DNA of 52,071 bases from an uncultured Gammaproteobacteria bacterium (lineage in GTDB: Bacteria > Patescibacteriota > Patescibacteriia > UBA2591 > CAYTBZ01): positions 1 through 52,071 of the forward strand of contig CAYTBZ010000005.1 in assembly GCA_964436275.1 (NCBI GenBank), given 5' to 3'. Below, one piece after another: positions 14,823-38,562 of the stretch. Numbering within the stretch: the first letter of the stretch is position 1; every line of letters starts with the position of its first letter. The position numbers and the translations under genes were made by a program. Below the pieces are notes generated by a model, which saw nothing but the letters and a program-made list of their open reading frames with translations, had not been told where the DNA came from and made no database searches.

Positions 14823-14859
14823 AAAATTAAAAATCTCTTAAAAAGAGATTTTTAATTTT
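14823..14859. terminator. Bidirectional terminator between smc and galT-like gene
   Basis: Perfect 17-bp inverted repeat AAAATTAAAAATCTCTT/AAGAGATTTTTAATTTT between convergent genes. Confidence 0.65.
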
Positions 14860-14868: not shown

Positions 14869-15777
14869 TTATTTTTCTCCACGATAAAATTTTGCTGCTT
14901 TTTCAGGAGAAATAGGATTAATAATTATTCCTGAACCAATCTCTACTCCTGCCCAAACCGATCCACGAGGAATAATTTTCATATAAAGATGCTGGTCCTC
15001 ATCATTTATAACTTGGTGAAAATAATAATTATAAGGCAAACCCAACTTTCTAACTTTTTTCAAAATTATTTTCAAAATTTTAGCAAAGGATTTAATCTCC
15101 TCTTTATTTAAATTAGAAATATTATCAACATGCCTTATAGGCATAATCCAGACCTCATAATTATGCATTGAAGCATAAGGACAAAAAGCAATTATATGTT
15201 TATCTTTATAAATTAGCCTACTACTTCTACTTTCTTTCTTAATAATATCACAATAAACACAACTTCCGTGTCTTAACATATATTCATGACACTTTTGAGA
15301 TTTATCAAAAACATGAGGAGGAATAAAGTCAGTAGCAAAAATTTGTGAATGAGAATGAGAAATAGAGGCACCAGCCGCTGCTCCACTATTCTTAAAAATC
15401 AAAATATAAGCAATTCTCTTATTCTTAGAAATCTCATAGGTCCTTTGAGCATAAACCTCTAACAATTTCCTAATATGCCTTTCGGGTAAATCCTCCAATT
15501 CTCTAAAATGGTTAGGCGTTTCAATCACTATCTCCTGAAGACCATATGCCTTTGGATTGTTTAAACTAACTGCTGGATAAATATTTTTAATAACTTTAAT
15601 TAGCCAGTTCTTTTCTGAGCCAACAGTAAGAATAGCCTTAACTTTATTCACTTTTTCCGGACAAAAAGCGCAAGGTGTCTTCTCTCCCCAACCTATTTGA
15701 TGAGGTCTCCGCGCTCTTTTAGGCGCAATAATAACATACTTATCTTGAATATAGTCCTTTCTCAATTCTGACATCAT
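14869..15777 (-). CDS. GalT-like (HIT superfamily) nucleotidyltransferase
   Basis: MSELRKD N-terminus, CAFC zinc motif, QEIVIETP, FKNSG...GASISHSHSQ (HxHxQ nucleophile motif), CVYCD. Confidence 0.85.
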   Translation of the reverse strand: MMSELRKDYIQDKYVIIAPKRARRPHQIGWGEKTPCAFCPEKVNKVKAILTVGSEKNWLIKVIKNIYPAVSLNNPKAYGLQEIVIETPNHFRELEDLPERHIRKLLEVYAQRTYEISKNKRIAYILIFKNSGAAAGASISHSHSQIFATDFIPPHVFDKSQKCHEYMLRHGSCVYCDIIKKESRSSRLIYKDKHIIAFCPYASMHNYEVWIMPIRHVDNISNLNKEEIKSFAKILKIILKKVRKLGLPYNYYFHQVINDEDQHLYMKIIPRGSVWAGVEIGSGIIINPISPEKAAKFYRGEK

Positions 15778-15788
15778 AAAGTTATTTA

Positions 15789-17228
15789 TTAATTATTAAA
15801 AAGTTTTTGATAAAGTTCTAAATATTTTTGAGCAGATTTAGACCAAGAAAAATCAGCTTTCATCGCTCTAATTTGCATCTTTTTCCATTTTTCTTTCTCT
15901 TGATAGAAAATTCTTACTGCTTTTTTAAACGACTTTAGAAAATCCTGAGGGTCATAATTTTCAAAAGTAAAACCTGTCTCTCCTTCAATGACTGTATCCT
16001 TTAACCCGCCAGTACTTCTAACCAGAGGTAAAGTCCCATAACGAAAAGCGATTAATTGACAAAGCCCGCAAGGTTCAAAACGAGAAGGCATTAACAAAAG
16101 ATCACTACCAGCATAAATTTTACGCGCTAATTTAGGGTCAAATTTAATTTGGGCAGATACAGAAAAAGGATATTTATCAGCCATTTCTCGAACTAATTTC
16201 TCATATTTTTGACTACCCTTTCCTAATATCACCAACTGAACTTTCTCCCTCATTATCTCATCAATTGCTGAGTAAATCAAGTCAACTCCTTTTTGAAAAG
16301 TTAAACGACCAATAAAACTAAGTAAAAGCATTTCCTTATCTAATGGAAGGCCAACTGTTTCTTGAAGGTCAATTTTGTTTTCTTTTTTTCTTTCTAAATT
16401 TTGCCAAGAATATCTTATTTTTATTTCCTTATCTGTCTGAGGGTTAAAATATTCTTTATCTATCCCATTAAGGATACCGTATAAATCATTTTTTCTCTTT
16501 CTTAGAACATTTTCTAAATTTTTGCCGAATTCTTTAGTTAAAATTTCTTGAGCATAGGTTGGGCTAACTGTATTAATTAAATCAGCATTTAAAATACCTT
16601 GTTGAAGTAAGTTTATATCTTTACCATAAGGGCCAATTGGCTGTTCTTTTAGAGTTGGCCAATCGTTTTCTTCTAATCCTAAAAAAGATAAGATTTCTTT
16701 TGCCCCCCATATTCCTTGATTGGCTAAGTTGTGAATGGTAAGCAATGTTTTTATCTTTTCTTTTCTGATTTTTATTAATAAAGGAATGACTGCTGTATGC
16801 CAATCATGACAATGAAGAATATCTGGTTGCCAATCAATATAAGAAAAAATTTCCAAAACAGCTTGAGAAAAGAAAAGAAATCTCTGTATCTCTCCCAAAG
16901 TATCGCAAAAGGCAGATTTGCTAAAATAAATCCCTCCTTGAGAAAGAAATTTTTTATTTTCCAAAAGATAAACAATAACTTTAGAAGAGGAAATTTCTCC
17001 TTGATAAAGATTGATTTTTTCTCCTGTTGGACTCAACTTTATTGGTATTCCTTTAAATAGCAATTTCGTCTTAAAGCCAGAATCTTTTATTGGTTGATAA
17101 TAGGGGATAGCAATGCGGATATCTTGACCCAATTTCTTTAATTCTTTAGGTAAAGAGCCAACTACATCGCCTAAACCGCCGACTTTGGCTAAAGGTGTAA
17201 GCTCTGAAGCAACAAAAAGTATTTTCAT
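15789..17228 (-). CDS. glgA: Glycogen/starch synthase (GT5), copy 2
   Basis: KVGGLGDV, HCHDWHT, TIHNLANQG, GILNGID, MPSRFEPCGL and TGGLKDTV motifs. Confidence 0.93.
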   Translation of the reverse strand: MKILFVASELTPLAKVGGLGDVVGSLPKELKKLGQDIRIAIPYYQPIKDSGFKTKLLFKGIPIKLSPTGEKINLYQGEISSSKVIVYLLENKKFLSQGGIYFSKSAFCDTLGEIQRFLFFSQAVLEIFSYIDWQPDILHCHDWHTAVIPLLIKIRKEKIKTLLTIHNLANQGIWGAKEILSFLGLEENDWPTLKEQPIGPYGKDINLLQQGILNADLINTVSPTYAQEILTKEFGKNLENVLRKRKNDLYGILNGIDKEYFNPQTDKEIKIRYSWQNLERKKENKIDLQETVGLPLDKEMLLLSFIGRLTFQKGVDLIYSAIDEIMREKVQLVILGKGSQKYEKLVREMADKYPFSVSAQIKFDPKLARKIYAGSDLLLMPSRFEPCGLCQLIAFRYGTLPLVRSTGGLKDTVIEGETGFTFENYDPQDFLKSFKKAVRIFYQEKEKWKKMQIRAMKADFSWSKSAQKYLELYQKLFNN

Positions 17229-17234
17229 TATTAT

Positions 17235-18137
17235 TTATTTAATTCTTAAAAATTTGTTTAATTCTTTAATACTAAAAGGAGGAAATTTTAAATAATCCCA
17301 AGGACTTCTAATAAAAAACCATTTATTAGGAAGTTCCCCGTGAAAATCAGAACCAATAGTAGGGAAAAGATTAAATTTATGGGCTACTTTTTGCCAATAA
17401 ATAATATCTGACCAACGATGATGAGAGGAAAGTACCTCTAAACCATCTAATCCTTTTCTCTTTAATTCTTTGATAACTCCTAAATCTTTCCAGGAAAGTT
17501 GCTGACTAGGATGGGCTAAAACCGCCTTTCCTCCTGCCTGATGAATGATTTTAATTGCCTTTCCTATCCCCACTTCGGCTTCTGGACAAATTAACCGACC
17601 TTTAATAAAAAAATACCGACCAATAACCTCAGTTAAAAGGATTGGTCTTTTTTTAAAATCTCTAACAACCCTTTTAAAATTTTCTTTAATCAGGGCCTCA
17701 GCCAGTTTATCTATACCCACATAAACAGCCGGAGTAGAAAAAACTTTTATTTCATCTATCTTCCACCCCTGCTTTCTTAAAATCTTAATACTCTTTTTTA
17801 TTATTTCTCTTTTTTTATTTTGTAAATCATTAAGGAGTTTATTTAATTTTTTATTTTTCGGATCAAAATTATAACCCAAAAGATGAAGATGGAATTTTTT
17901 GAAGAAAGTATAAATTTCCACTCCGGGAATATTTTTAAGACCAAATTTCTTAGCCCAATAATTCATCTCCTCAACCCCGTCTATTCCATTATGGTCGGTA
18001 AGGGAAATAATTTTTAAGCCCAATTTTTCTGCTTTTTTAGCCAATTCTTTGGGTGAATAAAGGCCATCAGAATAATAGGAATGGAAGTGTAAATCAATTA
18101 ATTTTTCTTTACTCATTTTATCAATTAATTTTACCAA
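17235..18137 (-). CDS. PHP-domain metal-dependent phosphoesterase (TrpH/YciV-like)
   Basis: DLHFHSYYSDG, LTDHN, GVEI, HLLGY, LAHP and GSDFHG motifs. Confidence 0.88.
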   Translation of the reverse strand: MVKLIDKMSKEKLIDLHFHSYYSDGLYSPKELAKKAEKLGLKIISLTDHNGIDGVEEMNYWAKKFGLKNIPGVEIYTFFKKFHLHLLGYNFDPKNKKLNKLLNDLQNKKREIIKKSIKILRKQGWKIDEIKVFSTPAVYVGIDKLAEALIKENFKRVVRDFKKRPILLTEVIGRYFFIKGRLICPEAEVGIGKAIKIIHQAGGKAVLAHPSQQLSWKDLGVIKELKRKGLDGLEVLSSHHRWSDIIYWQKVAHKFNLFPTIGSDFHGELPNKWFFIRSPWDYLKFPPFSIKELNKFLRIK

Positions 18138-19165
18138 TAATCTTGAGAAATTAATTTAAGTTTTTCAATAATTTTTCTTTTAGATTTCTTATTCTTCTCT
18201 AAGAAAATCAGGTTGGCTGTTATTTGAACTAAATTTCTTAAAGCAAAATATCTTATTTTTATTTTATCATCTTGATTGATTCCCTTTTTGAAATAACTAT
18301 CCAAAAACAATTGTTTTGCCTTTTGATAAAATCTTTTATGCTTTTTCCCTAAATAAAAAAGAGACATTGATTTCAATTGAACCAAAAAGCGGGCGATATC
18401 ATCAAAATAATCATAAAGATAGGCATCACTAAAATCAATTATTTTTATTTTTTTACCATTGCGCAAAAAATTTCCTAAATGAATATCTCCATGAGAGATA
18501 CCATATTCTTCAACTTTATCAAATAAATAAAAATTATTTCTTTTTATATAATTCATTCTTTTGAGAACCTTCTTTATAGGTAAAAGACCTGGGCGATAAT
18601 ACTTTTTTAAAAGATACAACCAATGCCGAATTTCTGAATTTTCTACATTTTTTGTTTTCAAAGGAAATTTAGTTTTATTGCTTATTGGCAAATGATGAAT
18701 TTTGTAAAGCAATTTAGCCATTGAGGGAACAAAATTCAAAATTATATCGGTCTCTCTTTTTTCTAAAAGAGTTTGAAAGCTTGTTCCTGGCACATTTTCA
18801 TAAAGAAGCAAATTATATTTTTCTAAATAATCCAATGGCTTAACCAAATATTTTTTAAATCCCTTCTGTCGGAGGTATTTAAGGAAGAGATAATGATTTC
18901 TTGGATTATCAAAAGCGCAATTTTTAGTCCTTTTCAATCTTCCCTGAATCGTCTTCTGGCGTTTTGAAGAATTAAATTTTATTTTTAATTTATACTCTAA
19001 AGATAAACTTTCATAATTAAGAAAATTCTTTCTTAACTTGATTTCAACCTCATCAACGGCTAATGCTTTTGGAAAATATCTCTTAATTCTTGAATTAAAA
19101 AATTTTTTCATAAATAAAGGGTTGAGAATTTGTTGAATTAGTTCTTTCTTTACTTGATTTCTCAT
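18131..19165 (-). CDS. APH/choline-kinase-fold phosphotransferase
   Basis: LLLYENVPG hinge region, HGDIHLGNFL catalytic loop, IIDFSDA metal-binding loop. Confidence 0.85.
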   Translation of the reverse strand: MRNQVKKELIQQILNPLFMKKFFNSRIKRYFPKALAVDEVEIKLRKNFLNYESLSLEYKLKIKFNSSKRQKTIQGRLKRTKNCAFDNPRNHYLFLKYLRQKGFKKYLVKPLDYLEKYNLLLYENVPGTSFQTLLEKRETDIILNFVPSMAKLLYKIHHLPISNKTKFPLKTKNVENSEIRHWLYLLKKYYRPGLLPIKKVLKRMNYIKRNNFYLFDKVEEYGISHGDIHLGNFLRNGKKIKIIDFSDAYLYDYFDDIARFLVQLKSMSLFYLGKKHKRFYQKAKQLFLDSYFKKGINQDDKIKIRYFALRNLVQITANLIFLEKNKKSKRKIIEKLKLISQDYW

Positions 19166-19166
19166 T

Positions 19167-21248
19167 TTATGAGGTTAAGAACCAAATTAATCTTTGAAGT
19201 AAAGCGTCTATTTTAGAAAGAATAATAATTAAAGGTTTTTTAAAATTAAATTTTATTTTCTTCTCTCGAGATAAATTATAGCCAGTAATCTTAAATTTAA
19301 ACAAAACTCCTTCCTTTGAGCAAGGAATTTCTACTTTCAATTGACCTTCCTTATCTTCTTTGAAAAAACGAGGAAGCCAGCCAAGCGTCTGGGAAACAAC
19401 AGCAACTTTTAAATATTTCCCTTTTAATTTATCTCTTTTCTTTAAATAATCCAATACCTTGGCTAATAAACTGTTCTTTTCGAAAATTATTTCTAATTTA
19501 TTTCCTTTTTTTAAGCGATAAGTCAGTTGACCAAAAGAATGTACTTTTTCTTTTTTATCAAACTCTATTTTAGAACAACTATTCCAGCCCTCTCTTAAAT
19601 AAAATTTAATCTCTTTTCCGGGAAACTCTGCTAGATAAAAATTATTATATTTATCCCAAAAAGCCCCTAAAGGATGAGATTGTTTATCTTTTTTGTCAAT
19701 AACTGCTTTAATTTTAGAAAAAAGAGTCAAAAATTGTTCTTCTTGAAATTTATCCTTATTAAAATCCTTAAAATAATTCTCTGCCAAAGGAGAAAATTCA
19801 TCTAAAGAATGCTCCCAAAATGATTTTAAGGAAGGAAGCGTCCTGCTTGCCCTTAAATCATCAATTATATGAAGAACATCATAAATATCAGTTCCTTGTT
19901 TTAACTTTTCTAAAGCATCGCGCCATTTTATCGCTTTTTCAAATTCTAAATTTGCTGCCGCTTTTTTCATCTCATCCTCCAATTCTAAGATAATTAAATT
20001 ATACCATTCTTTAGACACTCTTTCTTTAAAGGGCTTTTTGTTCTCTGTCCCTAATGCCTGACGATAGCGATGCCTAATAATTCCTTTCCTCTGCCAATCA
20101 AAAGCAATAGCCAAAATTTTTTGATAATACTCATTGGCTTTCTCTTTCTCTTTTAAAGAAGCATTAGGTAAAGCATTAACCACTTCTCTCAATTGATAAG
20201 CACCTTGTTCTATCATCTCTAAACTCCACCAAGGTTTTGCTGAAGCCCACCAAAACTGGTCTGATTGAAGCGACTTATCTAAAAGTTCCCTTGCCTTTCC
20301 TAAGGGCTGATTTTCCCTTTCTGCTTTTTCTACTAAATCAATTACAAAATAAGTAAAATCCCATTGAAGTTTATGAGTAGGATTAGAAGGATCCTGCCAA
20401 AGAAGGAAAGGAGAAAAAGTTCCCTGTTTTTTCTCCTTATCTAACCAGAAATCCTGTTCTTCAGACGACCAAGTAGATTCCCGGACTTCAATTTCTTCAT
20501 CAACGCTAAACTCTTCTACTAGTTCAGAAACTAATACATTCTTAAAAGGCGCTTCTTGATAAAGATTAAAAAGAAACTTCTCTAAACCAGGGCGATGGTG
20601 GCCAAAAGTTTCACCATCCATTACTGTCAGAAGATAACGGTTTTTTTTCAATTCTTCCCCTAATTCAGCCAAAAGTGATGCTTTGCTTCGTATTATTGCT
20701 GAAAGAATTAGAACACTAATTCTTTTATCACGAAAGACAATTTTTAAAGAGGGAATATTTTTAATTGAATAAATTTTCTGAAAATCAGGTTTTATTGAAG
20801 AAGCAAATTCTTCAGCCACTATCCACTGAAATCCTAACTGACTGACAAGATTGGCTAATTTGTAACTAAAAGCCAATTCAGGAGAAAAAAATCCTTTTGG
20901 CTGATAATTTTTGCCAAAGTATTTCTGACAAGTTTGATTATGCAAATTAATTTGTCTTTTAATCTCTTTCTCCGGAAGAAGGGGTAAAAAGGGATGATAC
21001 ATTGCGCTACCAGTAAGTTCTATTTGTCCTCTTCTAAGTAAATATCCAATATCATCAATAACATCATCATAGCCATTCTGCTCTAAAAGTTCTAACAATC
21101 CGCCATTAACATTCAAGGTCAATCTTGCTTTTTTGTTCTTTTTAAACCCATCTAAAAGAGGACGATAAGATTCATTAACTATTCTTTCCAAAATATCACT
21201 TTGCTGATTATGTGGTTGATAAATGTGAAGAAAATTCGCCCAACGCAT
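19167..21248 (-). CDS. Glycoside hydrolase family 57 protein with UVR motif and extra C-terminal domain
   Basis: FLHIYQP, ELTGSAMYHPFLPL, FFSPE (nucleophile Glu), MDGETFGHH (acid/base Asp), SDQFWW; ELEDEMKKAAANLEFEKAIKWRD is a UVR-like motif. Confidence 0.85.
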   Translation of the reverse strand: MRWANFLHIYQPHNQQSDILERIVNESYRPLLDGFKKNKKARLTLNVNGGLLELLEQNGYDDVIDDIGYLLRRGQIELTGSAMYHPFLPLLPEKEIKRQINLHNQTCQKYFGKNYQPKGFFSPELAFSYKLANLVSQLGFQWIVAEEFASSIKPDFQKIYSIKNIPSLKIVFRDKRISVLILSAIIRSKASLLAELGEELKKNRYLLTVMDGETFGHHRPGLEKFLFNLYQEAPFKNVLVSELVEEFSVDEEIEVRESTWSSEEQDFWLDKEKKQGTFSPFLLWQDPSNPTHKLQWDFTYFVIDLVEKAERENQPLGKARELLDKSLQSDQFWWASAKPWWSLEMIEQGAYQLREVVNALPNASLKEKEKANEYYQKILAIAFDWQRKGIIRHRYRQALGTENKKPFKERVSKEWYNLIILELEDEMKKAAANLEFEKAIKWRDALEKLKQGTDIYDVLHIIDDLRASRTLPSLKSFWEHSLDEFSPLAENYFKDFNKDKFQEEQFLTLFSKIKAVIDKKDKQSHPLGAFWDKYNNFYLAEFPGKEIKFYLREGWNSCSKIEFDKKEKVHSFGQLTYRLKKGNKLEIIFEKNSLLAKVLDYLKKRDKLKGKYLKVAVVSQTLGWLPRFFKEDKEGQLKVEIPCSKEGVLFKFKITGYNLSREKKIKFNFKKPLIIILSKIDALLQRLIWFLTS

Positions 21249-21252
21249 AGAT

Positions 21253-22446
21253 TTAAAAGAAATACTGATTAACTTTTTTATTTTTTTTATAGACCTGTCT
21301 TATTTTTCTAAATTTTTTTGATTTATCCCATTCTCTCAACAATTCTTTAATTTTATGAGATAAATTTATCACTTTTTTCTTATCTTTTAAAGGGATTGAT
21401 TTTGAACTAAAAACAATTTTTTCTAAACCATTTAAATAATCCTCAACAAAACCCGGATACCACCAAGGCATTGCTGAAGCCCACCAAAAAGGATCACTAT
21501 TAAGATATTTATCTAATTGTTCACGCCCGTTTTTAGAAGGATACTTTTTTATCAATCTCAAAACTAAATAGAGTAACTTCCACAAATAATAATGAATCAT
21601 ATTGCCCGGATAATTCCAAAGAGCATAAGGAATGTTTTCTTCAAGCTCATTCTCTTTTGAAGACCAAGAGGAGGGAAAAGGTTCAATTATTTGAGGTCTT
21701 GATGGTAAAATTTTCAAAAGTTCAGAATAAAATTTTGTCTCTGTTTTCTTGGCTATTCTTTGCCAAACTTTAGCCATTCCTTTATGGTGATGACCTAGAT
21801 TTTCTCCGTCCATAGCCGTCAAAATATATTTTTTACATCTCTTATCTTTACTTACTGAGCGGAAAAATTTTTTTGCTGAATTAAGCCAAGAACTTAAGAA
21901 TAAGTCAGAAAGAAAACGATTTCTAAAAAAAACTTTTAAATTTGTTCCCTTAATTTGATAAAGTTTGTCAAAAGAAACTAAGCCAAACTTTTTTTGATAA
22001 GCAATCTCATCAAGAATAATCCATTGATAGCCCAATTTATCAATTATTTTAGCTAATTTTTGGCTATAAGCCATTTCTGGGGGGAAAAAGCCCCTTGGTT
22101 GATAGATTTTACCAAAATATTTTCGATTAACTAAATAATTGAGTTTAATCTGACGGATAATTTCATCCTCAGGCAATAATGGTAAGAAAGAATGAAATTT
22201 AGCGCTTCCTAATAACTCTATTTGATTCCTTTTGGCCAAAAACCTTATTTTCTGAATTATTCTTTTATATCCGTTTTTTATTAAAAGTTCGGTTAAACTT
22301 CCGCTGATATTAAGAGAAATTTTTATCTGTTTATTATTTTCTAAAATAAAAAAAATTTTTTGATAACTCTCTCTAACTACTTTATCTAAAATCTTCTTTT
22401 TTTGATTTGCTGGCTGATAAATATGTAAAAGATTAGCCCAAACCAT
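21253..22446 (-). CDS. Glycoside hydrolase family 57 protein (short paralog)
   Basis: LLHIYQP, ELLGSAKFHSFLPL, FFPPE, MDGENLGHH and SDPFWW motifs. Confidence 0.85.
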   Translation of the reverse strand: MVWANLLHIYQPANQKKKILDKVVRESYQKIFFILENNKQIKISLNISGSLTELLIKNGYKRIIQKIRFLAKRNQIELLGSAKFHSFLPLLPEDEIIRQIKLNYLVNRKYFGKIYQPRGFFPPEMAYSQKLAKIIDKLGYQWIILDEIAYQKKFGLVSFDKLYQIKGTNLKVFFRNRFLSDLFLSSWLNSAKKFFRSVSKDKRCKKYILTAMDGENLGHHHKGMAKVWQRIAKKTETKFYSELLKILPSRPQIIEPFPSSWSSKENELEENIPYALWNYPGNMIHYYLWKLLYLVLRLIKKYPSKNGREQLDKYLNSDPFWWASAMPWWYPGFVEDYLNGLEKIVFSSKSIPLKDKKKVINLSHKIKELLREWDKSKKFRKIRQVYKKNKKVNQYFF

Positions 22447-22456
22447 TTAATAATAA

Positions 22457-23935
22457 TTAATGCTGATTGTTCTTCATTTTTAAAGCCCGGCGATAAAGAA
22501 GTAAGTATTTTTTAGTAGGTAAATTCCAAGAAAATGACTCCTTCATTGCCTGCCAAGTCAATTTTCCCCAAACTTGAGGATATTTATAAGTTTCCACAGC
22601 CCGAGTAATGGCTACCAAGAGATCAGCTGGTTCATAAGTTTTAAAAACAAATCCATTTCCTCTTCCTGTGCGTGGATTAAAATCAGAAATTGTATCTGAA
22701 AGTCCTCCAGTCTCATGAACAATAGGAATAGAACCGTAACGCAAACTTTTTAATTGTGAAATTCCACAAGGTTCAAAACGAGAAGGCATTAAGTACATAT
22801 CTGAACCAGCAAAAACCTTTCTCTCCATTTCTTCAGAAAAAGGATTAATAAAAGCAATTTTAGAAGGATATTTACGACTTATTTTTTTAAAAAAATCAAC
22901 GTATTCTTTTTGTCCACTGCCAACAATAACTAACTCTAAATTTTGTCTTAAAAGAGGTTTAATTATCTCTTTAATCAATTCAAATCCTTTTTGTTCGGTT
23001 AAACGACTGGTTAAACCAAGAATAGGTATATTTTTATCTACTTCTAAATTTAATTCCTTTTGTAAAGCCAATTTATTCTTTATTTTCTTATCTAAAGAAT
23101 TTTGATCATAATTATAGTAAATATATTTATCAAAAAGGGGATTAAAAACGCTATAATCAATCCCGTTTATTATTCCAAAAACACGTTCCTTTCTTTTGCG
23201 TAAAAGCCCATCTAATTCTTGACCAAATTCTGGGGTAAGAATTTCTTTAGCATGACGTTCAGAAACAGTATTAATAACATCAGCAAAACGAATTCCTCTT
23301 TTCATAAAATTTATTCTTTCAATTTTGTCTTTATCTTGAGGAGGCAAATTTTTTCCGTCGTCCCTTTCCTCTAACGGAATTTTCCACCAACTATGCCCCA
23401 ACTGAAAACTAATGTTATGAATTGTATAAACAATGGCTGTTTGATTAAAAAGAGGATTCTCTTTTTCGTTTAATTTTAGATAATTGGGGATTAGACCTGT
23501 CTGCCAATCATGACAATGAATTATGTTTGGTTCAAAATTCAACAATTTTAATAATTCTATAGAAGCCAAATCAAAGAGCATAAAACGAAGATTATCATTA
23601 GGATATCCATATAACTTGGAATGGCAGCCAAATAATTTATATTGGTCAACAAAATAAACAGGTAAATCTTTGATTAATTCACTTTTAAAAAAACGACAAA
23701 GATATTTTTCTCCAGCAACAGAAAGAGGAATTTCTGAATCAACTAATTCGGCTTTAATTTCGCCTTTATTTATTTTTTCTCGAATAAATCCATATAGAGG
23801 AGTAATAATAATCACTTGGTGACCCAATTTAACTAAATGAGTAGTTAAGGCGCTAACCACATCGGCCAAACCACCAGTTTTAGAAAAAGGGGCTACTTCA
23901 GAAGCAATATGAACAATTTTTAAATGACGAGACAT
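22457..23935 (-). CDS. glgA: Glycogen/starch synthase (GT5), copy 1
   Basis: KTGGLADV, HCHDWQT, TIHNI, GIINGID, MPSRFEPCGI and TGGLSDTI motifs. Confidence 0.93.
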   Translation of the reverse strand: MSRHLKIVHIASEVAPFSKTGGLADVVSALTTHLVKLGHQVIIITPLYGFIREKINKGEIKAELVDSEIPLSVAGEKYLCRFFKSELIKDLPVYFVDQYKLFGCHSKLYGYPNDNLRFMLFDLASIELLKLLNFEPNIIHCHDWQTGLIPNYLKLNEKENPLFNQTAIVYTIHNISFQLGHSWWKIPLEERDDGKNLPPQDKDKIERINFMKRGIRFADVINTVSERHAKEILTPEFGQELDGLLRKRKERVFGIINGIDYSVFNPLFDKYIYYNYDQNSLDKKIKNKLALQKELNLEVDKNIPILGLTSRLTEQKGFELIKEIIKPLLRQNLELVIVGSGQKEYVDFFKKISRKYPSKIAFINPFSEEMERKVFAGSDMYLMPSRFEPCGISQLKSLRYGSIPIVHETGGLSDTISDFNPRTGRGNGFVFKTYEPADLLVAITRAVETYKYPQVWGKLTWQAMKESFSWNLPTKKYLLLYRRALKMKNNQH

Positions 23936-23941
23936 AATAAA

Positions 23942-25051
23942 TTAAATAACTTTTAGAAATCGGCTGCTTAGAATAAACATTGCTTCAGACCAACAAAGAG
24001 GATAAATCCCTTGACGAAAATCATCAAAAATTTGTTCAGGTAAATATCCTTTATATTTATCCGCCTTTCTAACCACCCAAAGGTAATATTTCCAAGCCCT
24101 TTTCTTGTTTCCTCTTAAAACCCAATAAATACTCATCCAAAAATTTAAGGCTGGCCAAGCACCCCCTCCTTCCCAAGCTGAACCCTCACTGTCAAAATAA
24201 TCATACTCATAACGATGAACACCGCCTTTTATTACTATTCTTTTTTCCATCATTTCTATTGTCTTTTTTATTCTCAAATCATCTGCTGGATAAATTTCAA
24301 ATGGCCAAACTAGACCCAAAAGAGAAGCGTCTATATTTTTATCATCTATTCTTCCGTGGTTACGATAAAAATATCCGTCTTTTTCTGAATACGCCTCATC
24401 AATTTTGGAAATCATTTGTAGAGCGGTTTCTTTCCATACTTTTTTAGCAATAATTTCATAGGCACAAAGAAGTCCTCGGGCACAAGCAGCCAAAGAGTAA
24501 GTAAAATTATTTTGCATTGTTGTTGAGGTCTGACGACTTGTTTCTTCCCAAAGGTCAACAGTGTGTCGCAAAAAATATTTTCCTCCCCAAACCTCTACTA
24601 ATCCATTAGCTAACCTTTCTATTAATTCCTGAAATTTAAGAGCCCTTTTTAAATCTTTTTTAAAGTACTTATAATAATGGTGAATAGTATAAAGAGTAAT
24701 ACCCATTTGGTCTGGTTGAAATGCCTTGCCCATACTACCAAATTGTCCGTTGGTAGAATAATTAGCAAAAAGAAGTTTTTCTCTTTTAAAATCACGCGGC
24801 CTTTCTTCTAACCATTTAAAAAATGGTTCCTGAATCTCCATCTTTAAAATCTCTCCGGCTAAACAAGTAAAGCAAGCATCTCTTGGCCAAACCCAGCGGT
24901 AATTAAAGGCCTCACGAGGATAATAAGGTTTATCTGTATTAGCAGCAACAATAGCGCCATTCTCCAAAACACAATCTTTAATTACCTCCTTAGCCCTTTT
25001 AATCATCTTTTTTATTTTTGCTTTTAAGGTAGGAGAAAGTTGATTAAACAT
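23942..25051 (-). CDS. GH15-like glucoamylase/six-hairpin glycosidase
   Basis: YRWVWPRD, DLWEE (general acid region), DASLLGL and YLPEQ (general base region) motifs. Confidence 0.8.
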   Translation of the reverse strand: MFNQLSPTLKAKIKKMIKRAKEVIKDCVLENGAIVAANTDKPYYPREAFNYRWVWPRDACFTCLAGEILKMEIQEPFFKWLEERPRDFKREKLLFANYSTNGQFGSMGKAFQPDQMGITLYTIHHYYKYFKKDLKRALKFQELIERLANGLVEVWGGKYFLRHTVDLWEETSRQTSTTMQNNFTYSLAACARGLLCAYEIIAKKVWKETALQMISKIDEAYSEKDGYFYRNHGRIDDKNIDASLLGLVWPFEIYPADDLRIKKTIEMMEKRIVIKGGVHRYEYDYFDSEGSAWEGGGAWPALNFWMSIYWVLRGNKKRAWKYYLWVVRKADKYKGYLPEQIFDDFRQGIYPLCWSEAMFILSSRFLKVI

Positions 25052-25055
25052 AAAT

Positions 25056-25586
25056 TCATTTAGAATTGATAACTTTTTTATTAAATTTTTCTATTTGAAG
25101 ACAAGTAAGAGCAAGGGCTAAAGCATCAGCCGCATCATCTGGCTGGGGAATTGTCTTAAGTTTCAAAATATTTTTAACCATCTTTTGAATCTGTTTTTTA
25201 TCGGCTTGACCATAACCAGTGATAGCCATTTTTACTTGAAGTGGAGTAAATTCCACAAGAGGAATTTTTTTCTTTATGATTGTATATAAAATAACTCCCC
25301 GCGCCTCGCCAACTTGAATAGCTGTCTTAACATTTCTGGCGAAGAAAATTTTTTCTAAAGCAATTTTTGTTGGTCGGTATTTTTGAATAATTTCGCCCAA
25401 TTTCTGATGTATTTTTTCTAATCTCTTTGCCAAGGATTGACCGGCTTTTGTCCTAATAACTCCGTAGGTTATCAAATGAGGTTCTCTTGATGTTGAAGAA
25501 TGAACTCCTAAGCCAATAAGACCAAAACCAACACTAGCCACGCCCGGATCAATACCAAGGATTATTTCTTTTTTTCTATTCTTCAT
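25056..25586 (-). CDS. ruvC: Holliday junction resolvase RuvC
   Basis: ILGIDPG, IALEKIFF, VGEARGV, TPLQVK, GYGQADKKQ and DDAADALA motifs. Confidence 0.96.
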   Translation of the reverse strand: MKNRKKEIILGIDPGVASVGFGLIGLGVHSSTSREPHLITYGVIRTKAGQSLAKRLEKIHQKLGEIIQKYRPTKIALEKIFFARNVKTAIQVGEARGVILYTIIKKKIPLVEFTPLQVKMAITGYGQADKKQIQKMVKNILKLKTIPQPDDAADALALALTCLQIEKFNKKVINSK

Positions 25587-26301
25587 TGGTATAATAATTA
25601 TCCACTTCCTGACACTCGTCTAATTCTAAATATAACTTTTCCAATTTCTGCTTTACGCCAGCATCTTCTACCTTAACTTTATTCTTGGCTACCATTTCCA
25701 CTTCTGCATAATTAATTGAAAATCCTTCTTGCTCCAATCCCTCTTTAATTTTTTGTAAATTTTCTGGAAGAGTAAAAATAATTATCTCACCGTTTTCTTC
25801 TTTAATATCTTCAGCCCCTAATTCAATGGCTTTTAATTCAATTTTCTCCTTATCTTCAGGTTTACCACTTTCGCTTAAACGAATTACACCTTTTGTTTCA
25901 AACATCCAAAGCACACTCTTGGGCTCACCTAAACGGCCTTGATATTTATTTAAAATATGTTTTAAATTAGCCACTGCCCGGTTTTTGTTATCAGTAAGCA
26001 CTTCAATCACCATTGCTACTCCTCCCGGACCAAATGCCTCATAAACTACTTTTTCAATAGTTGCTCCAGAAAGCTTTCCGGTTCCTCTTTTAATCGCCCG
26101 CTCAATATTTTCTTTAGGCATATTGGCTTGCTTTGCTTTTTCTATGGCTAAACGCAATTTAAAATTAGTTTCCGGATTACCTCCGCCCTGACGAGCAGCC
26201 AAACTAATCGCTCTGGCTAATTTAGTAAAAAGAGCCCCCCTTTTCGCATCAGCCAACCCCTTTGACCTTTTAATTTGTGCCCATTTAGAATGACCAGACA
26301 T
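25576..26301 (-). CDS. yebC: YebC/PmpR family protein
   Basis: MSGHSKWAQIKRSKG, NMPKENIERAI, YEAFGPGGVA and TDNKNRA motifs. Confidence 0.95.
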   Translation of the reverse strand: MSGHSKWAQIKRSKGLADAKRGALFTKLARAISLAARQGGGNPETNFKLRLAIEKAKQANMPKENIERAIKRGTGKLSGATIEKVVYEAFGPGGVAMVIEVLTDNKNRAVANLKHILNKYQGRLGEPKSVLWMFETKGVIRLSESGKPEDKEKIELKAIELGAEDIKEENGEIIIFTLPENLQKIKEGLEQEGFSINYAEVEMVAKNKVKVEDAGVKQKLEKLYLELDECQEVDNYYTNEE

Positions 26302-26405: not shown

Positions 26406-26459
26406 TATCTTAAGTGTTCATTGAAAACAAAGGAAACAAACCCCAAAAAGGAGGGAAAG

Positions 26460-27248: not shown

Positions 27249-27261
27249 GCATCAAATAAAC

Positions 27262-34327: not shown

Positions 34328-34331
34328 TAAC

Positions 34332-35231: not shown

Positions 35232-35258
35232 AATTTCACCTCCTTTCTTAAAAATAAA

Positions 35259-37699: not shown

Positions 37700-38562
37700 A
37701 TCTTCAAATTTTTAAGATAATTTTTGAATTCTTCTTTAAACTTTTCTCTCTCTAAAGCAAAATCAACAATTGCCTTTAAAAATTCTAACTTATTACCACA
37801 ATCATAGTATCTACCTTGATATTGATAAGCATAAAAATCCCTTTGAGTTAAAAGTAGATCCACTGCATCAGCTAACCAAAGCTCCCCTCCTTTACCAATT
37901 TCTGTTTTCTTTACTGCTTCAAAAATATCTGGAGTAAAAATATAACGACCAGCAACAGCTAAATTAGAAGGCGCATCTTTAGGTAAGGGTTTCTCCACAA
38001 TATCTTTTACTTTATAAACTCTATCTTCCACTTTTTCTCCGTCAATCACTCCGTAACGATGGACTTTTTCTTTAGCGACTTGAGTAACTCCAATAACCGG
38101 ACTTTGATATTTATAAAATACTTCCATCATCTGTTTGGTTGCTGGAACTTCCCCTTTGATTAAATCGTCGCCAAAAGCAAAAACAAAGGGTTCTGAGCCA
38201 ATTAACTTTTCTACATTAAGAACCGGTGTAGCATTTCCATAAGGACCTTTCTGCCGAAGATAAACAAAATAAGCCATCTCTGAAAGATGACGGATTTCTT
38301 CTAATTCCTTTATTTTATTATTTCTTTCTAAATGAACTTCTAAGGACTTATTTTGGTCAAAATGATCTTCAATCGCTCTTTTGCCTTGCCCAGTGACTAA
38401 AATAATCTCCTCAATGCCTGAGTCAACCATTTCCTCTACAATATACTGAATGACCGGCTTGTCAATAATGGCCAGCATTTCCTTTGGCTGGGCTTTGGTT
38501 GCTGGTAGAAAACGGGTACCAAAGCCAGCTACTGGAATCACAGCTTTTTTTATTTTTTTCAT
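37696..38562 (-). CDS. galU: UTP--glucose-1-phosphate uridylyltransferase
   Basis: KAVIPVAGFGTRFLPATKAQPKEML, FGDD, RYGV, VEKP, GRYI and YDCG motifs. Confidence 0.93.
   Translation of the reverse strand: MKKIKKAVIPVAGFGTRFLPATKAQPKEMLAIIDKPVIQYIVEEMVDSGIEEIILVTGQGKRAIEDHFDQNKSLEVHLERNNKIKELEEIRHLSEMAYFVYLRQKGPYGNATPVLNVEKLIGSEPFVFAFGDDLIKGEVPATKQMMEVFYKYQSPVIGVTQVAKEKVHRYGVIDGEKVEDRVYKVKDIVEKPLPKDAPSNLAVAGRYIFTPDIFEAVKKTEIGKGGELWLADAVDLLLTQRDFYAYQYQGRYYDCGNKLEFLKAIVDFALEREKFKEEFKNYLKNLKI

What the first reader, a model, noticed from the sequence alone, without database searches (positions are those of the whole stretch)
14869..25051. Eight-gene alpha-glucan operon lacking the canonical glgC/glgB/glgP set
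Seen: co-oriented, tightly packed GH15 - GlgA1 - GH57a - GH57b(UVR fusion) - APH kinase - PHP phosphoesterase - GlgA2 - GalT-like, closed by a bidirectional terminator. The window has no ADP-glucose pyrophosphorylase, GH13 branching/debranching enzyme or glycogen phosphorylase. Known: GH57 includes branching enzymes, amylopullulanases and 4-alpha-glucanotransferases; GH15 are exo-glucoamylases; GT5 extend alpha-1,4-glucan. Inference: a self-contained non-canonical glycogen cycle with its own donor supply and a phospho-switch. This is the best candidate here for an under-described system.
Basis: partly seen in the sequence, partly recalled or inferred. Interest (0 to 1): 0.75.

Follow-up and report, generated by a model that had tools for sequence, protein, structure and literature searches.

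The report
Modular alpha-glucan gene cluster of CPR bacteria
The eight genes are real. They are one lineage's version of a storage-sugar (glycogen-like) gene cluster found across the ultra-small Patescibacteria, and it carries an uncharacterised kinase family and an ADP-glucose-phosphorylase-like enzyme whose roles are unknown.

Summary
Eight tightly packed minus-strand genes (GH15, GlgA1, GH57a, GH57b with a UVR motif, APH kinase, PHP, GlgA2, GalT-like) end at a 17-bp AT-rich hairpin.

The transcription unit probably starts further upstream, at yebC-ruvC, because GH15 begins 4 nt after ruvC.

About 110 related Patescibacteria loci show a modular cluster rather than a fixed eight-gene operon:
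- The core is GlgA1-(GH57a)-GH57b.
- The window's APH kinase family directly follows GH57b in 35 of 36 cases, and in all 8 informative kinase-anchored look-ups.
- The kinase's partner varies: PHP, a second active APH, a fused APH, or nothing. One lineage has an unrelated APH plus a histidine phosphatase in the same slot.
- GlgA2 is followed by the GalT-like gene in 21 of 24 cases.
- GH15 is only occasionally present.

The GalT-like protein is closest to Arabidopsis ADP-glucose phosphorylase. Both GH57 proteins keep their catalytic Glu and Asp but belong to uncharacterised subfamilies that resemble a 4-alpha-glucanotransferase more than a branching enzyme.

The window does encode GalU and a PGI. 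"Own donor supply" and "phospho-switch" are therefore not shown. Donor supply through this enzyme would be thermodynamically uphill.

The core operon was mentioned in passing for a WWE3 genome in 2013. I found no earlier description of the kinase and phosphatase module.

The parts
25576..26301 (-). yebC (YebC/PmpR family). First gene of the co-directional array and the likely start of the transcription unit.
   Evidence: NF001030, 285 bits. It overlaps ruvC by 11 nt. The order YebC-RuvC-(GH15)-GlgA1 recurs in L009, L010, L030, L032, L039, L040, L044, L054, L060, L098 and L116.
25056..25586 (-). ruvC. It ends 4 nt before GH15, which leaves no room for a separate promoter.
   Evidence: PF02075, E 7e-50. 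Coordinates.
23942..25051 (-). GH15 catalytic-domain-only protein (369 aa). Predicted exo-acting glucoamylase-like hydrolase; an accessory module.
   Evidence: PF00723, and TIGR01577 E 2.5e-32 covering profile positions 258-608 only. The DLWEE and LPEQ motifs are visible in the translation. It is present in only 6 loci of the survey (L009, L014, L029, L057, L060 and the window).
22457..23935 (-). GlgA1, a bacterial ADP-glucose-type GT5 glycogen/starch synthase. Part of the universal core.
   Evidence: TIGR02095, 507 bits. Best PDB match is E. coli GS 2QZS, E 2e-76. A GlgA lies directly upstream of GH57b, or upstream of an intervening GH57a, in 72 of 76 loci.
21253..22446 (-). GH57a (397 aa), a catalytically intact GH57 paralogue of unknown specificity.
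   Evidence: PF03065, E 1.6e-35. E124, D213, E215 and H219-H220 are invariant in 14 orthologues. Best PDB match is the T. litoralis 4-alpha-glucanotransferase, N-terminal region only.
19167..21248 (-). GH57b (693 aa), the signature protein of the cluster. It comprises a GH57 barrel, a helical region with a UVR motif (nt 19896-19991) and a lineage-specific C-terminal beta-rich extension (about nt 19170-19751).
   Evidence: PF03065 and PF02151. More than 2000 homologues, nearly all from Patescibacteria. E124 and D211 are invariant and align with TLGT E123 and D214. AF2 model pLDDT 87; best Foldseek hit 1K1X, E 3e-17 at 19% identity.
18131..19165 (-). APH-fold kinase (344 aa), member of a small uncharacterised family dedicated to this genomic slot.
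   Evidence: PF01636. H225, D227, N232 and D244 are invariant. AF2 model pLDDT 96. It shows only generic APH, choline-kinase and RiPP-kinase similarity. It directly follows GH57b in 35 of 36 cases and in all 8 informative kinase-anchored contigs.
17235..18137 (-). PHP-family metal-dependent phosphoesterase (TrpH/YciV type). It is one of several alternative partners of the kinase. The TTG start is uncertain; an in-frame ATG lies 7 codons downstream.
   Evidence: PF02811. NF041577 (pAp phosphatase) scores 133 bits and RNase RNM 122 bits, both far below their cut-offs. The HxH, E, H, H and DxH motifs are visible in the translation. All 13 PHP genes in the surveyed loci directly follow an APH gene.
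15789..17228 (-). GlgA2, a second bacterial ADP-glucose-type GT5 synthase and an ancient paralogue of GlgA1.
   Evidence: TIGR02095, 542 bits. Best PDB matches are E. coli and A. tumefaciens GS. Upstream and downstream GlgAs in other lineages consistently best-match GlgA1 and GlgA2 respectively.
14869..15777 (-). Class I GalT/HIT nucleotidyltransferase, closest to ADP-glucose phosphorylase.
   Evidence: 1Z84 (At5g18200) E 2e-45; P. aerophilum GalT E 1e-39; E. coli GalT E 1.6e-18. The HSHSQ and CxxC motifs are conserved. It directly follows a GlgA in 21 of 24 cases.
14823..14859 (.). Perfect 17-bp AT-rich hairpin between the convergent smc and GalT-like genes; a putative bidirectional terminator.
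   Evidence: folding energy -15.3 and -17.1 kcal/mol, z-scores -5.8 and -6.3. The consensus scan missed it.
27343..28404 (+). Bifunctional phosphoglucose/phosphomannose isomerase, divergent from the yebC side. A conserved neighbour of the cluster.
   Evidence: TIGR02128, 249 bits. A PGI lies divergent from YebC in L009, L010, L030, L032, L039, L040, L060 and L098.
37696..38562 (-). GalU (UTP-glucose-1-phosphate uridylyltransferase). It supplies UDP-glucose from outside the cluster.
   Evidence: TIGR01099, 350 bits against a cut-off of 326.8.

Best explanation
The region is one lineage's build of a modular, Patescibacteria-wide gene cluster for making and remobilising an intracellular alpha-1,4-glucan.

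Shown by homology:
- Two ancient GT5 paralogues (GlgA1, GlgA2) of the bacterial ADP-glucose type elongate the chains.
- Two catalytically intact GH57 paralogues belong to uncharacterised subfamilies. Their Glu-Asp spacing and best structural match are those of a 4-alpha-glucanotransferase, not of the known GH57 branching enzymes.
- A minimal GH15 has its glucoamylase catalytic motifs intact.

Inferred:
- The GH57 pair rearranges or trims chains (disproportionation, possibly branching).
- GH15 releases glucose during mobilisation.
- The GalT-like HIT enzyme, fixed directly after GlgA2, interconverts NDP-glucose (most likely ADP-glucose) and glucose-1-phosphate through a covalent His-NMP intermediate.
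- GlgA plus an ADP-glucose phosphorylase sums to the glycogen phosphorylase reaction. I therefore favour this pair acting as a near-equilibrium link between the glucan and the G1P pool, which under normal Pi/G1P runs towards phosphorolysis. I do not favour it as the donor-supply step.
- Net synthesis more likely draws on NDP-glucose made elsewhere. GalU is in the window; a GlgC elsewhere in the genome is not excluded.
- The APH kinase belongs to a small family found essentially only directly after GH57b. It is most likely a small-molecule (carbohydrate or oligosaccharide hydroxyl) kinase working with GH57b.
- PHP is one of several interchangeable partners of the kinase, not a fixed off-switch.
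- The array is probably transcribed from upstream of yebC.
For: - Domain identities.
- Tight packing and the ruvC-GH15 gap of 4 nt.
- Full colinear copy at 32-60% identity in L009. Partial or variant copies in L001, L003, L010 and L029-L032.
- Survey of 109 distinct loci: GlgA is upstream of GH57b in 72 of 76; APH directly follows GH57b in 35 of 36; PHP directly follows APH in 13 of 13; GalT-like directly follows GlgA in 21 of 24.
- Kinase-anchored look-ups reaching relatives at E about 4e-6 all land in the same slot.
- GH57 catalytic residues are invariant and align to TLGT E123 and D214. Foldseek best hit is TLGT.
- The GalT-like protein is closest to At5g18200, which acts as an ADP-Glc phosphorylase (PMC6329318). 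HxHxQ is invariant in 20 cluster GalT-likes.
- In 5 loci with only GlgA-GH57b, a GT35 phosphorylase sits in the cluster. None of these 5 has a GalT-like gene or a second GlgA, while 18 other loci have the GalT-like gene.
- GalU and PGI are in the window.
- In Sulfolobus, GH57 amyA and glgA are needed for glycogen synthesis and GH15 gaa for its degradation (PMC8158581).
Against: - No biochemical data exist for any protein of this cluster.
- The GalT-like protein is almost as close to a bona fide archaeal GalT (6K5Z) as to the ADP-Glc phosphorylase, so its nucleotide specificity is open.
- The Keq of the ADP-Glc phosphorylase (about 5-40 towards G1P) is recalled from McCoy et al. 2006. It could not be re-read here.
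- The complementary distribution of GlgP against GlgA2-GalT rests on 5 against 18 loci (hypergeometric p about 0.05) and is not corrected for phylogeny.
- Loci anchored on GH57b are biased towards showing its neighbours.
- The kinase substrate is not indicated by sequence or fold.
- Genome-wide presence of glgC, glgB, glgP and pgm is unknown.
- No transcript data are available.
Confidence: 0.55

Rival explanations
1. One reading: a self-contained, GlgC-independent synthesis route. The APH enzyme is an anomeric glucokinase (glucose + ATP -> G1P + ADP). The GalT-like enzyme runs in reverse (ADP + G1P -> ADP-Glc + Pi). GlgA1 and GlgA2 polymerise, a GH57 branches, GH15 recycles glucose, and PHP switches the system off.
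For: - No GlgC was found in the window, in its flanks or in 1.29 Mb of related loci.
- Both GlgAs are of the ADP-Glc type.
- The GalT-like protein is closest to an ADP-Glc phosphorylase.
- APH and GalT-like genes are adjacent in L001.
- An APH-type anomeric kinase paired with a GalT is a known design in the bifidobacterial GNB/LNB pathway (bioRxiv 10.64898/2026.09.13.751320).
- The kinase would deliver both substrates (G1P and ADP) of the reverse reaction.
Against: - The reverse reaction is uphill (Keq recalled as about 1/5 to 1/40).
- GlgA plus this enzyme has the same overall equilibrium as phosphorylase, so it needs Pi/G1P below about 3.6.
- GlgA2-GalT occurs without any kinase in 11 of 42 complete loci, including all WWE3-type loci.
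- The kinase is not specifically similar to NahK or maltokinase.
- The kinase's partner is often a second kinase rather than a phosphatase.
- GalU is present.
Confidence: 0.2
2. A GlgE-like pathway built on GH57. The APH kinase(s) make maltose-1-phosphate or maltooligosaccharide-1-phosphate. GH57b, a retaining transferase-type enzyme, uses this as donor to extend the glucan, releasing Pi. GH57a branches.
For: - Kinase-GH57b adjacency is nearly absolute and tightly spaced, which suggests successive steps.
- Maltokinase also has an APH-like fold (my own knowledge).
- GH57b resembles a glucanotransferase.
- Tandem or fused active kinases are common.
Against: - GH57b occurs without the kinase in 50 of 78 loci with downstream sequence.
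- The kinase shows no specific similarity to maltokinase.
- Two bona fide GlgAs already account for elongation.
- No GH57 enzyme is known to use a glycosyl-phosphate donor.
Confidence: 0.1
3. Reversible glucan phosphorylation, analogous to plant GWD/PWD with SEX4/LSF2. The kinase(s) phosphorylate glucan hydroxyls to loosen a poorly branched, semi-crystalline glucan. PHP or the histidine phosphatase removes the phosphate during degradation.
For: - The cluster has no canonical branching enzyme.
- APH enzymes typically phosphorylate sugar hydroxyls.
- A kinase plus phosphatase pair recurs with non-homologous phosphatases: PHP in the window lineage and His_Phos_1 in L011, L012 and L025.
- Two-kinase variants recall the GWD and PWD pair.
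Against: - Many clusters have kinase(s) without any phosphatase.
- No carbohydrate-binding module was detected in the kinase.
- The CPR3-type kinase belongs to a different APH lineage, so the parallel may be coincidental.
- No APH-fold glucan kinase is known.
Confidence: 0.1
4. A protein phospho-switch. The APH-fold kinase phosphorylates GlgA or GH57b (perhaps docking on the UVR hairpin), and PHP or the histidine phosphatase reverses it, as in eukaryotic glycogen synthase control.
For: - The best Foldseek hit of the kinase is a peptide (RiPP) kinase, TvaE.
- The PHP and His_Phos families both include protein phosphatases (my own knowledge).
- UVR motifs mediate protein-protein contacts.
Against: - Profile matches are dominated by small-molecule kinases.
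- The PHP is of the TrpH/YciV type, not the CpsB type.
- The UVR motif is conserved in the many GH57b proteins that have no kinase next to them.
Confidence: 0.08
5. PHP (like yebC and ruvC) is an unrelated housekeeping gene, such as a pAp phosphatase or RNase AM, that merely sits inside the array.
For: - Its best family matches are pAp phosphatase and RNase RNM.
- It is absent from most clusters.
- yebC and ruvC show that unrelated genes do share this array.
Against: - All 13 PHP genes seen lie directly after the kinase, in lineages whose kinases are only 27-32% identical.
- PHP overlaps the kinase gene here by 7 nt.
- A PHP-anchored test could not be run.
Confidence: 0.15

Closest known systems
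Glycogen operon noted in the WWE3 RAAC2 genome (Kantor et al. 2013, mBio, PMC3812714)
   Same: It has the same core: a predicted GalT, two glycogen synthases, an alpha-amylase-like (GH57) gene and a GH57 gene in one operon. My WWE3 loci L013-L023 show GlgA1-GH57-GH57b-GlgA2-GalT.
   Different: It was only mentioned in one sentence and never characterised. The WWE3 version lacks the APH kinase, PHP and (mostly) GH15. Its GH57b lacks the C-terminal extension, and its GalT-like protein is only 27-32% identical (HPHSQ instead of HSHSQ).
Crenarchaeal glg cluster (Sulfolobus acidocaldarius glgX-gaa-glgC / amyA-glgA; PMC8158581)
   Same: It combines a GH15 glucoamylase, a GT5 GlgA and a GH57 'amylase', with no GH13 branching enzyme. 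Genetics there show that the GH57 and GlgA are needed for synthesis and the GH15 for degradation.
   Different: Sulfolobus has a GlgC-like nucleotidyltransferase and GlgX in the cluster, and GlgP elsewhere. It has no GalT-like gene, no kinase, no phosphatase and only one GlgA. The CPR GlgAs are of the bacterial type, not the archaeal type.
Classical bacterial GlgC-GlgA-GlgB-GlgX-GlgP pathway (E. coli glgBXCAP)
   Same: It uses a GT5 ADP-glucose-type glycogen synthase. E. coli GS is the best PDB match for both GlgAs.
   Different: No homologue of GlgC, GH13 GlgB, GlgX or GlgP is in the window, and none lies next to GalT-containing clusters. GH57 proteins and the GalT-like enzyme take their positions.
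Arabidopsis At5g18200 ADP-glucose phosphorylase (PDB 1Z84/2H39)
   Same: It gives a full-length match at E 2e-45. The HSHSQ nucleophile motif is identical and the CxxC zinc site is conserved.
   Different: Identity is only moderate. An archaeal enzyme with true GalT activity (6K5Z) is nearly as close. The plant enzyme is not linked to a glycogen synthase gene, and its physiological role is itself unclear.
GlgE pathway (TreS-Mak, GlgM, GlgE, GlgB) of actinobacteria
   Same: It combines a kinase of APH-like fold with a retaining glycoside-hydrolase-family transferase and a GlgA-like glycosyltransferase in alpha-glucan synthesis.
   Different: There is no GH13_3 GlgE and no TreS. The kinase is not specifically related to maltokinase, and the glycosyltransferases are GT5, not GT4.
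Bifidobacterial GNB/LNB pathway (NahK + GalT2)
   Same: An APH-fold anomeric sugar kinase is encoded next to a GalT-type nucleotidyltransferase. In L001 the APH and GalT-like genes are adjacent.
   Different: That GalT is class II and acts on UDP-sugars and N-acetylhexosamine 1-phosphates. No glucan synthase or GH57 is involved.
Plant reversible starch phosphorylation (GWD/PWD dikinases, SEX4/LSF2 phosphatases)
   Same: Kinase(s) and phosphatase are dedicated to alpha-glucan turnover. Two kinases occur in some variants.
   Different: The protein families are entirely different. No evidence here shows that the glucan itself is the substrate.

Membership tests
GH57 glycoside hydrolase family (GH57a and GH57b) | Pfam GH57 domain with a catalytic nucleophile Glu (CSR3) and an acid/base Asp (CSR4) | tested here: met
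   PF03065, E 1.6e-35 and 5.6e-34. E124 and D211 (GH57b) and E124 and D213 (GH57a) are invariant across orthologues. They align to TLGT E123 and D214.
GH57 glycogen branching enzymes (TK1436 / TT1467 type) | Full-length similarity to characterised GH57 branching enzymes, with a long insertion between nucleophile and acid/base (about 170 residues) and the DUF1957-type C-terminal domain | tested here: not met
   The NCBIfam branching-enzyme models score 20-31 bits against cut-offs of 920-1000, and only over about 60 residues. The Glu-Asp spacing is 87-89 residues. Foldseek ranks TLGT first and the branching enzymes next, at 16% identity. Branching activity is not excluded, only membership.
Bacterial ADP-glucose-type glycogen synthase (GT5 GlgA) | Score above cut-off on TIGR02095; KxGGL motif; full-length match to E. 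coli and A. tumefaciens GS | tested here: met
   507 and 542 bits against a cut-off of 328. KTGGL and KVGGL are visible. 2QZS and 3D1J match at E 2e-76 and 9e-82. Donor specificity itself was not testable.
ADP-glucose phosphorylase / class I GalT branch of the HIT superfamily | HxHxQ motif with a nucleophilic second His, a Zn site, and a two-HIT-lobe fold | tested here: met
   HSHSQ and CxxC are conserved. H141, H143 and Q145 are invariant in 21 sequences. The match to 1Z84 is full length, E 2e-45.
ADP-glucose phosphorylase / class I GalT branch of the HIT superfamily | Adenine (ADP-Glc) rather than uracil (UDP-Glc) specificity, with phosphate as acceptor | not testable with these tools
   The protein is almost equally similar to At5g18200 (158 bits) and to P. 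aerophilum GalT (140 bits). An enzyme assay is needed.
Classical GlgC/GlgB/GlgP glycogen operon | ADP-glucose pyrophosphorylase, GH13 branching enzyme and GT35 phosphorylase encoded with glgA | tested here: not met
   phmmer with E. coli GlgC, GlgB, GlgX and GlgP against all ORFs of the window and 1.29 Mb of loci gave no hit in the window. Only GalU-like hits appeared for GlgC. GT35 appeared only in 10 loci that lack GalT. The whole genome was not available.
Maltokinase (Mak/Pep2) or N-acetylhexosamine 1-kinase (NahK) anomeric sugar kinases | Specific sequence or structure similarity beyond the generic APH fold | tested here: not met
   Neither appears among the top 50 Foldseek hits or the top 60 profile hits. 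The best hits are the ACAD11 kinase domain, APH(2''), choline kinase and a RiPP kinase. This lowers the case for membership but does not exclude an analogous activity.
APH / eukaryotic-like kinase fold, catalytically active | HxDxxxxN catalytic loop and a downstream metal-binding Asp | tested here: met
   H225, D227, N232 and D244 are invariant in 40 sequences. The motif is kept in 34 of 35 family members in the loci and in most second (APHb) copies. AF2 pLDDT is 96.
PHP phosphoesterase, TrpH/YciV (COG0613) type | PHP metal-binding motifs and a score above an equivalog cut-off | tested here: inconclusive
   PF02811 is above its cut-off. The HxH, E, H, H and DxH motifs are present by eye. NF041577 scores 133 against 400 and RNase RNM 122 against 375, both far below cut-off. 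The superfamily is assigned; the substrate is not.
GH15 glucoamylase/glucodextranase | (alpha/alpha)6 catalytic domain with general acid and base Glu, plus the N-terminal beta-sandwich domain of prokaryotic members | tested here: inconclusive
   The catalytic domain matches (PF00723; TIGR01577 positions 258-608 of 616), and DLWEE and LPEQ are present. The N-terminal domain is absent: the protein is 369 aa against about 600 or more.
Crenarchaeal-type glg cluster | GH15, GlgA and GH57 encoded together | tested here: met
   against PMC8158581. The GlgC-like and GlgX components of that cluster are absent here.

The most novel reading that the evidence does not exclude
CPR bacteria may run alpha-glucan turnover with two devices that have not been described.

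1. GlgA2 plus the GalT-like enzyme may form an ADP-cycling, two-enzyme equivalent of glycogen phosphorylase: glucan + ADP -> ADP-Glc, then ADP-Glc + Pi -> ADP + G1P. This would replace GT35 phosphorylase and save ATP in energy-poor fermenters. GlgA1 would synthesise from a different donor pool.

2. A dedicated APH kinase family may supply GH57b with a phosphorylated sugar or glucan substrate. It could be a glycosyl-phosphate donor, as in the GlgE pathway, or a phospho-glucan. Interchangeable partners (a second kinase, PHP or a histidine phosphatase) would tune that step.
Probability: 0.2. Interest if true: 0.85.

Novelty: new variant of a known kind. Interest (0 to 1): 0.6.

Why it matters
Patescibacteria make up a large share of bacterial diversity, have minimal metabolism and are mostly uncultured. 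How they store and recover carbon is largely unknown.

This cluster is widespread among them: GH57b alone has more than 2000 homologues. It contains three protein families with no characterised member: the GH57b-UVR proteins, GH57a and the GH57b-linked kinase. It also contains a GalT / ADP-glucose-phosphorylase homologue fixed next to a glycogen synthase.

If the GalT-like enzyme links ADP-glucose to glucose-1-phosphate in either direction, that would be a GlgC- or GlgP-independent step of glycogen metabolism. A 2024 comprehensive review of prokaryotic alpha-glucan enzymes does not mention such a step (PMC11046441). It would also suggest a physiological role for the plant enzyme, whose function is unclear.

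The proteins are small and soluble, so direct assays are feasible.

Tried and rejected
Steps that failed or could not be run:
- The consensus terminator scan found no site in the spacer. I replaced it with direct folding.
I redid it with database homologues.
- A metagenome scan with the kinase alignment failed because no stretch was conserved enough. I anchored the scan on GH57b instead.
A PHP-anchored or GalT-anchored context test could therefore not be made.
- McCoy et al. 2006 is not held. The Keq values are from memory.
- No RNA runs hold the sequence. Only hydrothermal-vent DNA metagenomes do.

Ideas considered and rejected:
- The kinase is a maltokinase or NahK: no specific similarity.
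- Either GH57 is a canonical branching enzyme.
- The donor nucleotide of GlgA1 and GlgA2 can be told apart from the residue at E. coli Tyr355: both have Phe.
- The CPR3-type kinase is an orthologue of the window kinase: only the catalytic loop aligns.
- The long C-terminal extension of GH57b tracks the presence of the kinase or PHP: it does not.
- The eight genes form an indivisible unit: only L009 and L060 carry the full set.

Full report
**1. What is in the window**

Ten minus-strand ORFs run without a usable gap from 26301 down to 14869: yebC, ruvC, then the eight genes of the finding. Gaps between the eight are 1 to 11 nt, and APH and PHP overlap by 7 nt. GH15 starts 4 nt after ruvC, and ruvC overlaps yebC by 11 nt.

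- A GH15 catalytic domain of only 369 aa. TIGR01577 aligns to profile positions 258-608.
- Two GT5 synthases above the TIGR02095 cut-off (507 and 542 bits against 328).
- Two GH57 proteins. The second carries a UVR motif at residues 420-451.
- An APH-fold kinase, a PHP phosphoesterase and a class I GalT/HIT protein.

The 57-nt spacer to the convergent smc gene holds a perfect 17-bp AT-rich hairpin with A and T runs on either side. Its folding energy is -15 to -17 kcal/mol and its z-score about -6 on both strands. The consensus scan missed it because it requires three G-C pairs.

The observation therefore stands, with the correction that the transcription unit most likely begins at yebC.

**2. 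Rest of the window**

I annotated all larger ORFs. Five tandem T4SS-pilin-like genes, the low G+C content and the gene content point to a Patescibacteria (CPR) genome. The sequence occurs in hydrothermal-vent metagenomes.

No GlgC, GH13 enzyme or GT35 phosphorylase is in the window. phmmer with the E. coli GlgC, GlgB, GlgX and GlgP proteins found nothing there. About 20 kb of further flank from the same contigs adds none.

The window does encode a bona fide GalU (TIGR01099, 350 bits against a cut-off of 326.8; 37696-38562) and a bifunctional PGI/PMI (27343-28404) divergent from the yebC side. UDP-glucose can therefore be made, and "self-contained" is not accurate. The remainder of the genome could not be read with these tools.

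**3. Conservation and modularity**

I collected related loci from three sources:
- The kinase's only close homologue (43% identity). Its contig carries GlgA-GH57-GH57b(UVR)-APH-GalT between entirely different neighbours, without GH15, PHP or a second GlgA.
- A GH57b-anchored scan of species-representative genomes, which gave 24 CPR loci.
- A profile-anchored metagenome scan, which gave 80 more.

I called ORFs and labelled them with HMMs built from the window proteins.

L009 and L060 reproduce the whole array, and L009 adds the convergent smc: PGI <| YebC-RuvC-GH15-GlgA1-GH57a-GH57b-APH-PHP-GlgA2-GalT |< SMC. L009 does so at 32-60% identity to the window proteins.

Across 109 distinct loci:
- A GlgA lies upstream of GH57b, directly or with GH57a between them, in 72 of 76 loci with enough sequence.
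- Directly downstream of GH57b (70 loci with at least 2.5 kb) lie the window-type APH (27), GlgA2 (14), GT4 genes (4) or unrelated genes (24).
- 35 of 36 window-family APH genes directly follow GH57b.
- All 13 PHP genes directly follow an APH gene.
- 21 of 24 GalT-like genes directly follow a GlgA.

WWE3-type loci read GlgA1-GH57-GH57b-GlgA2-GalT with no kinase. This is the operon that Kantor et al. mentioned in one sentence in 2013 (PMC3812714).

The cluster is therefore a core (GlgA1, an optional GH57a, GH57b) plus optional modules.

**4. The kinase module**

An exhaustive HMMER search found only 256 representative clusters at E below 1e-3, and 16 below 1e-30. The family is small.

The loci above were anchored on GH57b, so I also looked up contigs starting from kinase relatives at decreasing similarity, down to E about 4e-6. 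In all 8 contigs with any upstream sequence, a GH57(UVR) gene lies directly upstream. A ninth contig was too short to tell.

What follows the kinase varies:
- PHP (window, L003, L009, L010, L029 and others).
- A second APH paralogue (L027, L032, L107, L110, L115).
- A fused double APH of about 650-700 aa (L030, and many representatives).
- GlgA2 directly (L044, L046, L067, L116 and others).
- The GalT-like gene directly (L001).

Both kinase copies usually keep the HxDxxxxN loop and the metal-binding Asp.

In CPR3-type loci (L011, L012, L025) the same slot holds an APH kinase of a different lineage, of which only the catalytic loop aligns. It is followed by a histidine-phosphatase-superfamily protein. 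A kinase plus phosphatase pair has therefore arisen at this position at least twice, from non-homologous parts. A phosphatase is nonetheless not obligatory.

The AF2 model of the kinase is confident (pLDDT 96). It matches only generic APH, choline-kinase and RiPP-kinase folds, with TM about 0.6 and 9-19% identity. Profile hits are led by the ACAD11 kinase domain and APH(2''). Maltokinase and NahK are not among the top hits.

I conclude that it is an active small-molecule-type kinase functionally tied to GH57b. Its substrate is unknown.

**5. The GH57 pair**

GH57b has more than 2000 homologues at E below 1e-10, almost all from Patescibacteria. They are annotated as "UvrB/UvrC motif-containing protein", "hypothetical" or "polysaccharide deacetylase family".

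- E124 (PELA) and D211 (MDxETFGHHR) are invariant. They align with the nucleophile and acid/base residues (E123 and D214) of the Thermococcus litoralis 4-alpha-glucanotransferase.
- The 87-residue spacing matches that enzyme, not the roughly 170 residues of the GH57 branching enzymes.
- The AF2 model (pLDDT 87) is closest to TLGT (E 3e-17, 19% identity). Branching enzymes and amylopullulanases follow at 13-18% identity.
- GH57a orthologues also keep the Glu and the Asp.

Both are thus catalytically competent members of uncharacterised GH57 subfamilies. Branching is possible but unsupported, so it is an assumption that the product is glycogen rather than a less branched glucan.

The UVR hairpin is conserved in the whole GH57b family. 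The beta-rich C-terminal extension (residues about 500-693) is lineage-specific and does not track the kinase.

**6. The GalT-like enzyme and the donor question**

Its best solved relative is Arabidopsis At5g18200 (E 2e-45, full length). P. aerophilum GalT follows (E 1e-39) and E. coli GalT lies far behind (E 1.6e-18).

At5g18200 lacks GalT activity and acts as an ADP-glucose phosphorylase (McCoy et al. 2006, as cited in PMC6329318).

The HSHSQ nucleophile motif and the CxxC zinc site are conserved. HxHxQ is invariant in all 20 cluster GalT-likes, and the WWE3 type reads HPHSQ. Nucleotide specificity cannot be read from sequence.

Both GlgAs are of the bacterial ADP-glucose type, so an enzyme that handles ADP-glucose next to GlgA2 makes sense.

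The direction matters. From memory of McCoy et al. (not re-readable here), Keq is about 5 without Mg and about 40 with Mg, towards ADP + G1P. By simple addition, GlgA plus this enzyme equals the glycogen phosphorylase reaction, which favours synthesis only when Pi/G1P is below roughly 3.6.

I therefore rate "own donor supply" as unlikely. I favour a reversible glucan-to-G1P link that normally runs towards phosphorolysis.

There is weak comparative support. Among 42 loci with at least 4 kb upstream and 5 kb downstream, 18 carry the GalT-like gene (17 of them with two GlgAs). Five carry a GT35 phosphorylase next to a lone GlgA-GH57b, and these two sets do not overlap. The hypergeometric p is about 0.05 and is not corrected for phylogeny. 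Three further loci have GH77 after GlgA2 instead (L027, L107, L110).

**7. GH15 and PHP**

GH15 shows the DLWEE and LPEQ catalytic motifs but lacks the N-terminal domain of prokaryotic GH15 enzymes. It is present in only six surveyed loci. By analogy with Sulfolobus gaa (PMC8158581) it probably releases glucose during mobilisation.

PHP has all the PHP metal-binding motifs and resembles TrpH/YciV-type enzymes, but scores far below any equivalog cut-off. Its strict position after the kinase argues for a role in the cluster. A PHP-anchored test was not possible.

**8. Comparison and novelty**

The nearest described thing is the WWE3 operon noted in 2013. The nearest characterised system is the crenarchaeal GH15/GlgA/GH57 cluster.

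The differences are:
- the second GlgA with the GalT-like enzyme;
- the dedicated kinase family with variable partners;
- the absence of GlgC, GlgX and GH13 enzymes.

Full-text searches found no other paper that combines these genes. A 2024 comprehensive review of prokaryotic alpha-glucan enzymes mentions neither CPR nor ADP-glucose phosphorylase.

I rate this a new variant of a known kind. It is of moderate to high interest, because several steps are directly testable with soluble recombinant proteins.

**9. Limits**

- All functional statements rest on homology and gene context.
- Loci are partly biased by their anchor.
- Counts are not corrected for phylogeny.
- No transcript data exist.
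- The genome-wide complement of glycogen genes is unknown.

Noticed in passing
window 33941-36348 (- strand): Five tandem small genes each carry a T4SS_pilin domain (PF18895), next to a sugar-type ABC substrate-binding protein (36317-37699) and GalU (37696-38562). The pilin array is typical of CPR cell-surface or type IV systems.
   Followed up: partly
L080:4516-6921 and L078:1648-3966: The GT35 alpha-glucan phosphorylase-like protein next to GlgA-GH57b is fused to an N-terminal HAD/eukaryotic-type phosphomannomutase domain (PF03332, PF08282). This would join phosphorolysis and G1P-to-G6P conversion in one polypeptide.
   Followed up: partly
L011:6321-7903, L012:12971-14593, L025 (equivalent position): CPR3-type clusters carry an APH kinase of a different lineage plus a His_Phos_1 phosphatase in the same slot as the window's APH-PHP pair. 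Two GT4 glycosyltransferases and a third GH57 lie upstream of them.
   Followed up: partly
L030:7541-9505, and many representatives of about 650-700 aa: The two tandem APH kinases of the cluster occur as a single fused protein in some lineages. This suggests that the two kinases act together.
   Followed up: partly
window 50721-51941, and window 1-1332: A tyrosine recombinase/integrase sits directly before three tRNA genes (Arg, Ala, Ala), and four more tRNA genes lie at the other end of the window. In the relative L001 the glucan cluster sits right after the LysM-CHAP gene, where the window has this integrase. The cluster has therefore moved between genomic sites.
   Followed up: no
window 26421-27284: A 275-aa ORF (TTG start, + strand) with no Pfam match lies between yebC and PGI. 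It is followed by a strong GC-rich 9-bp hairpin (27262-27284) that scores as a terminator on both strands. Relatives have PGI directly divergent from yebC.
   Followed up: no
window 8317-9147 (- strand): One protein combines an ATP-cone, an Mrr-type restriction endonuclease domain and an AF1548-like C-terminal domain. It lies next to a T2SSE/PilB-type ATPase and near dnaA (9618-10988).
   Followed up: no
P0185: A GH57b homologue 55% identical to the window protein is deposited as Candidatus Aenigmarchaeota (DPANN archaeon). This reflects either a mis-binned CPR contig or transfer between the two ultra-small groups.
   Followed up: no
L027:4384-4887: In the variant that has GH77 instead of the GalT-like gene after GlgA2, a small stand-alone HIT protein (167 aa) lies directly upstream of GlgA1 (the gene called immediately before it).
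   Followed up: no
L004-L008, L033, L034, L036: Kuenenbacteria-type GH57b proteins (706-718 aa) have the longest C-terminal extension, but are followed by unrelated genes. They often lack an adjacent GlgA. In L005 and L036 a GalU-like gene lies nearby, and in L036 a GlgA lies on the opposite strand.
   Followed up: no
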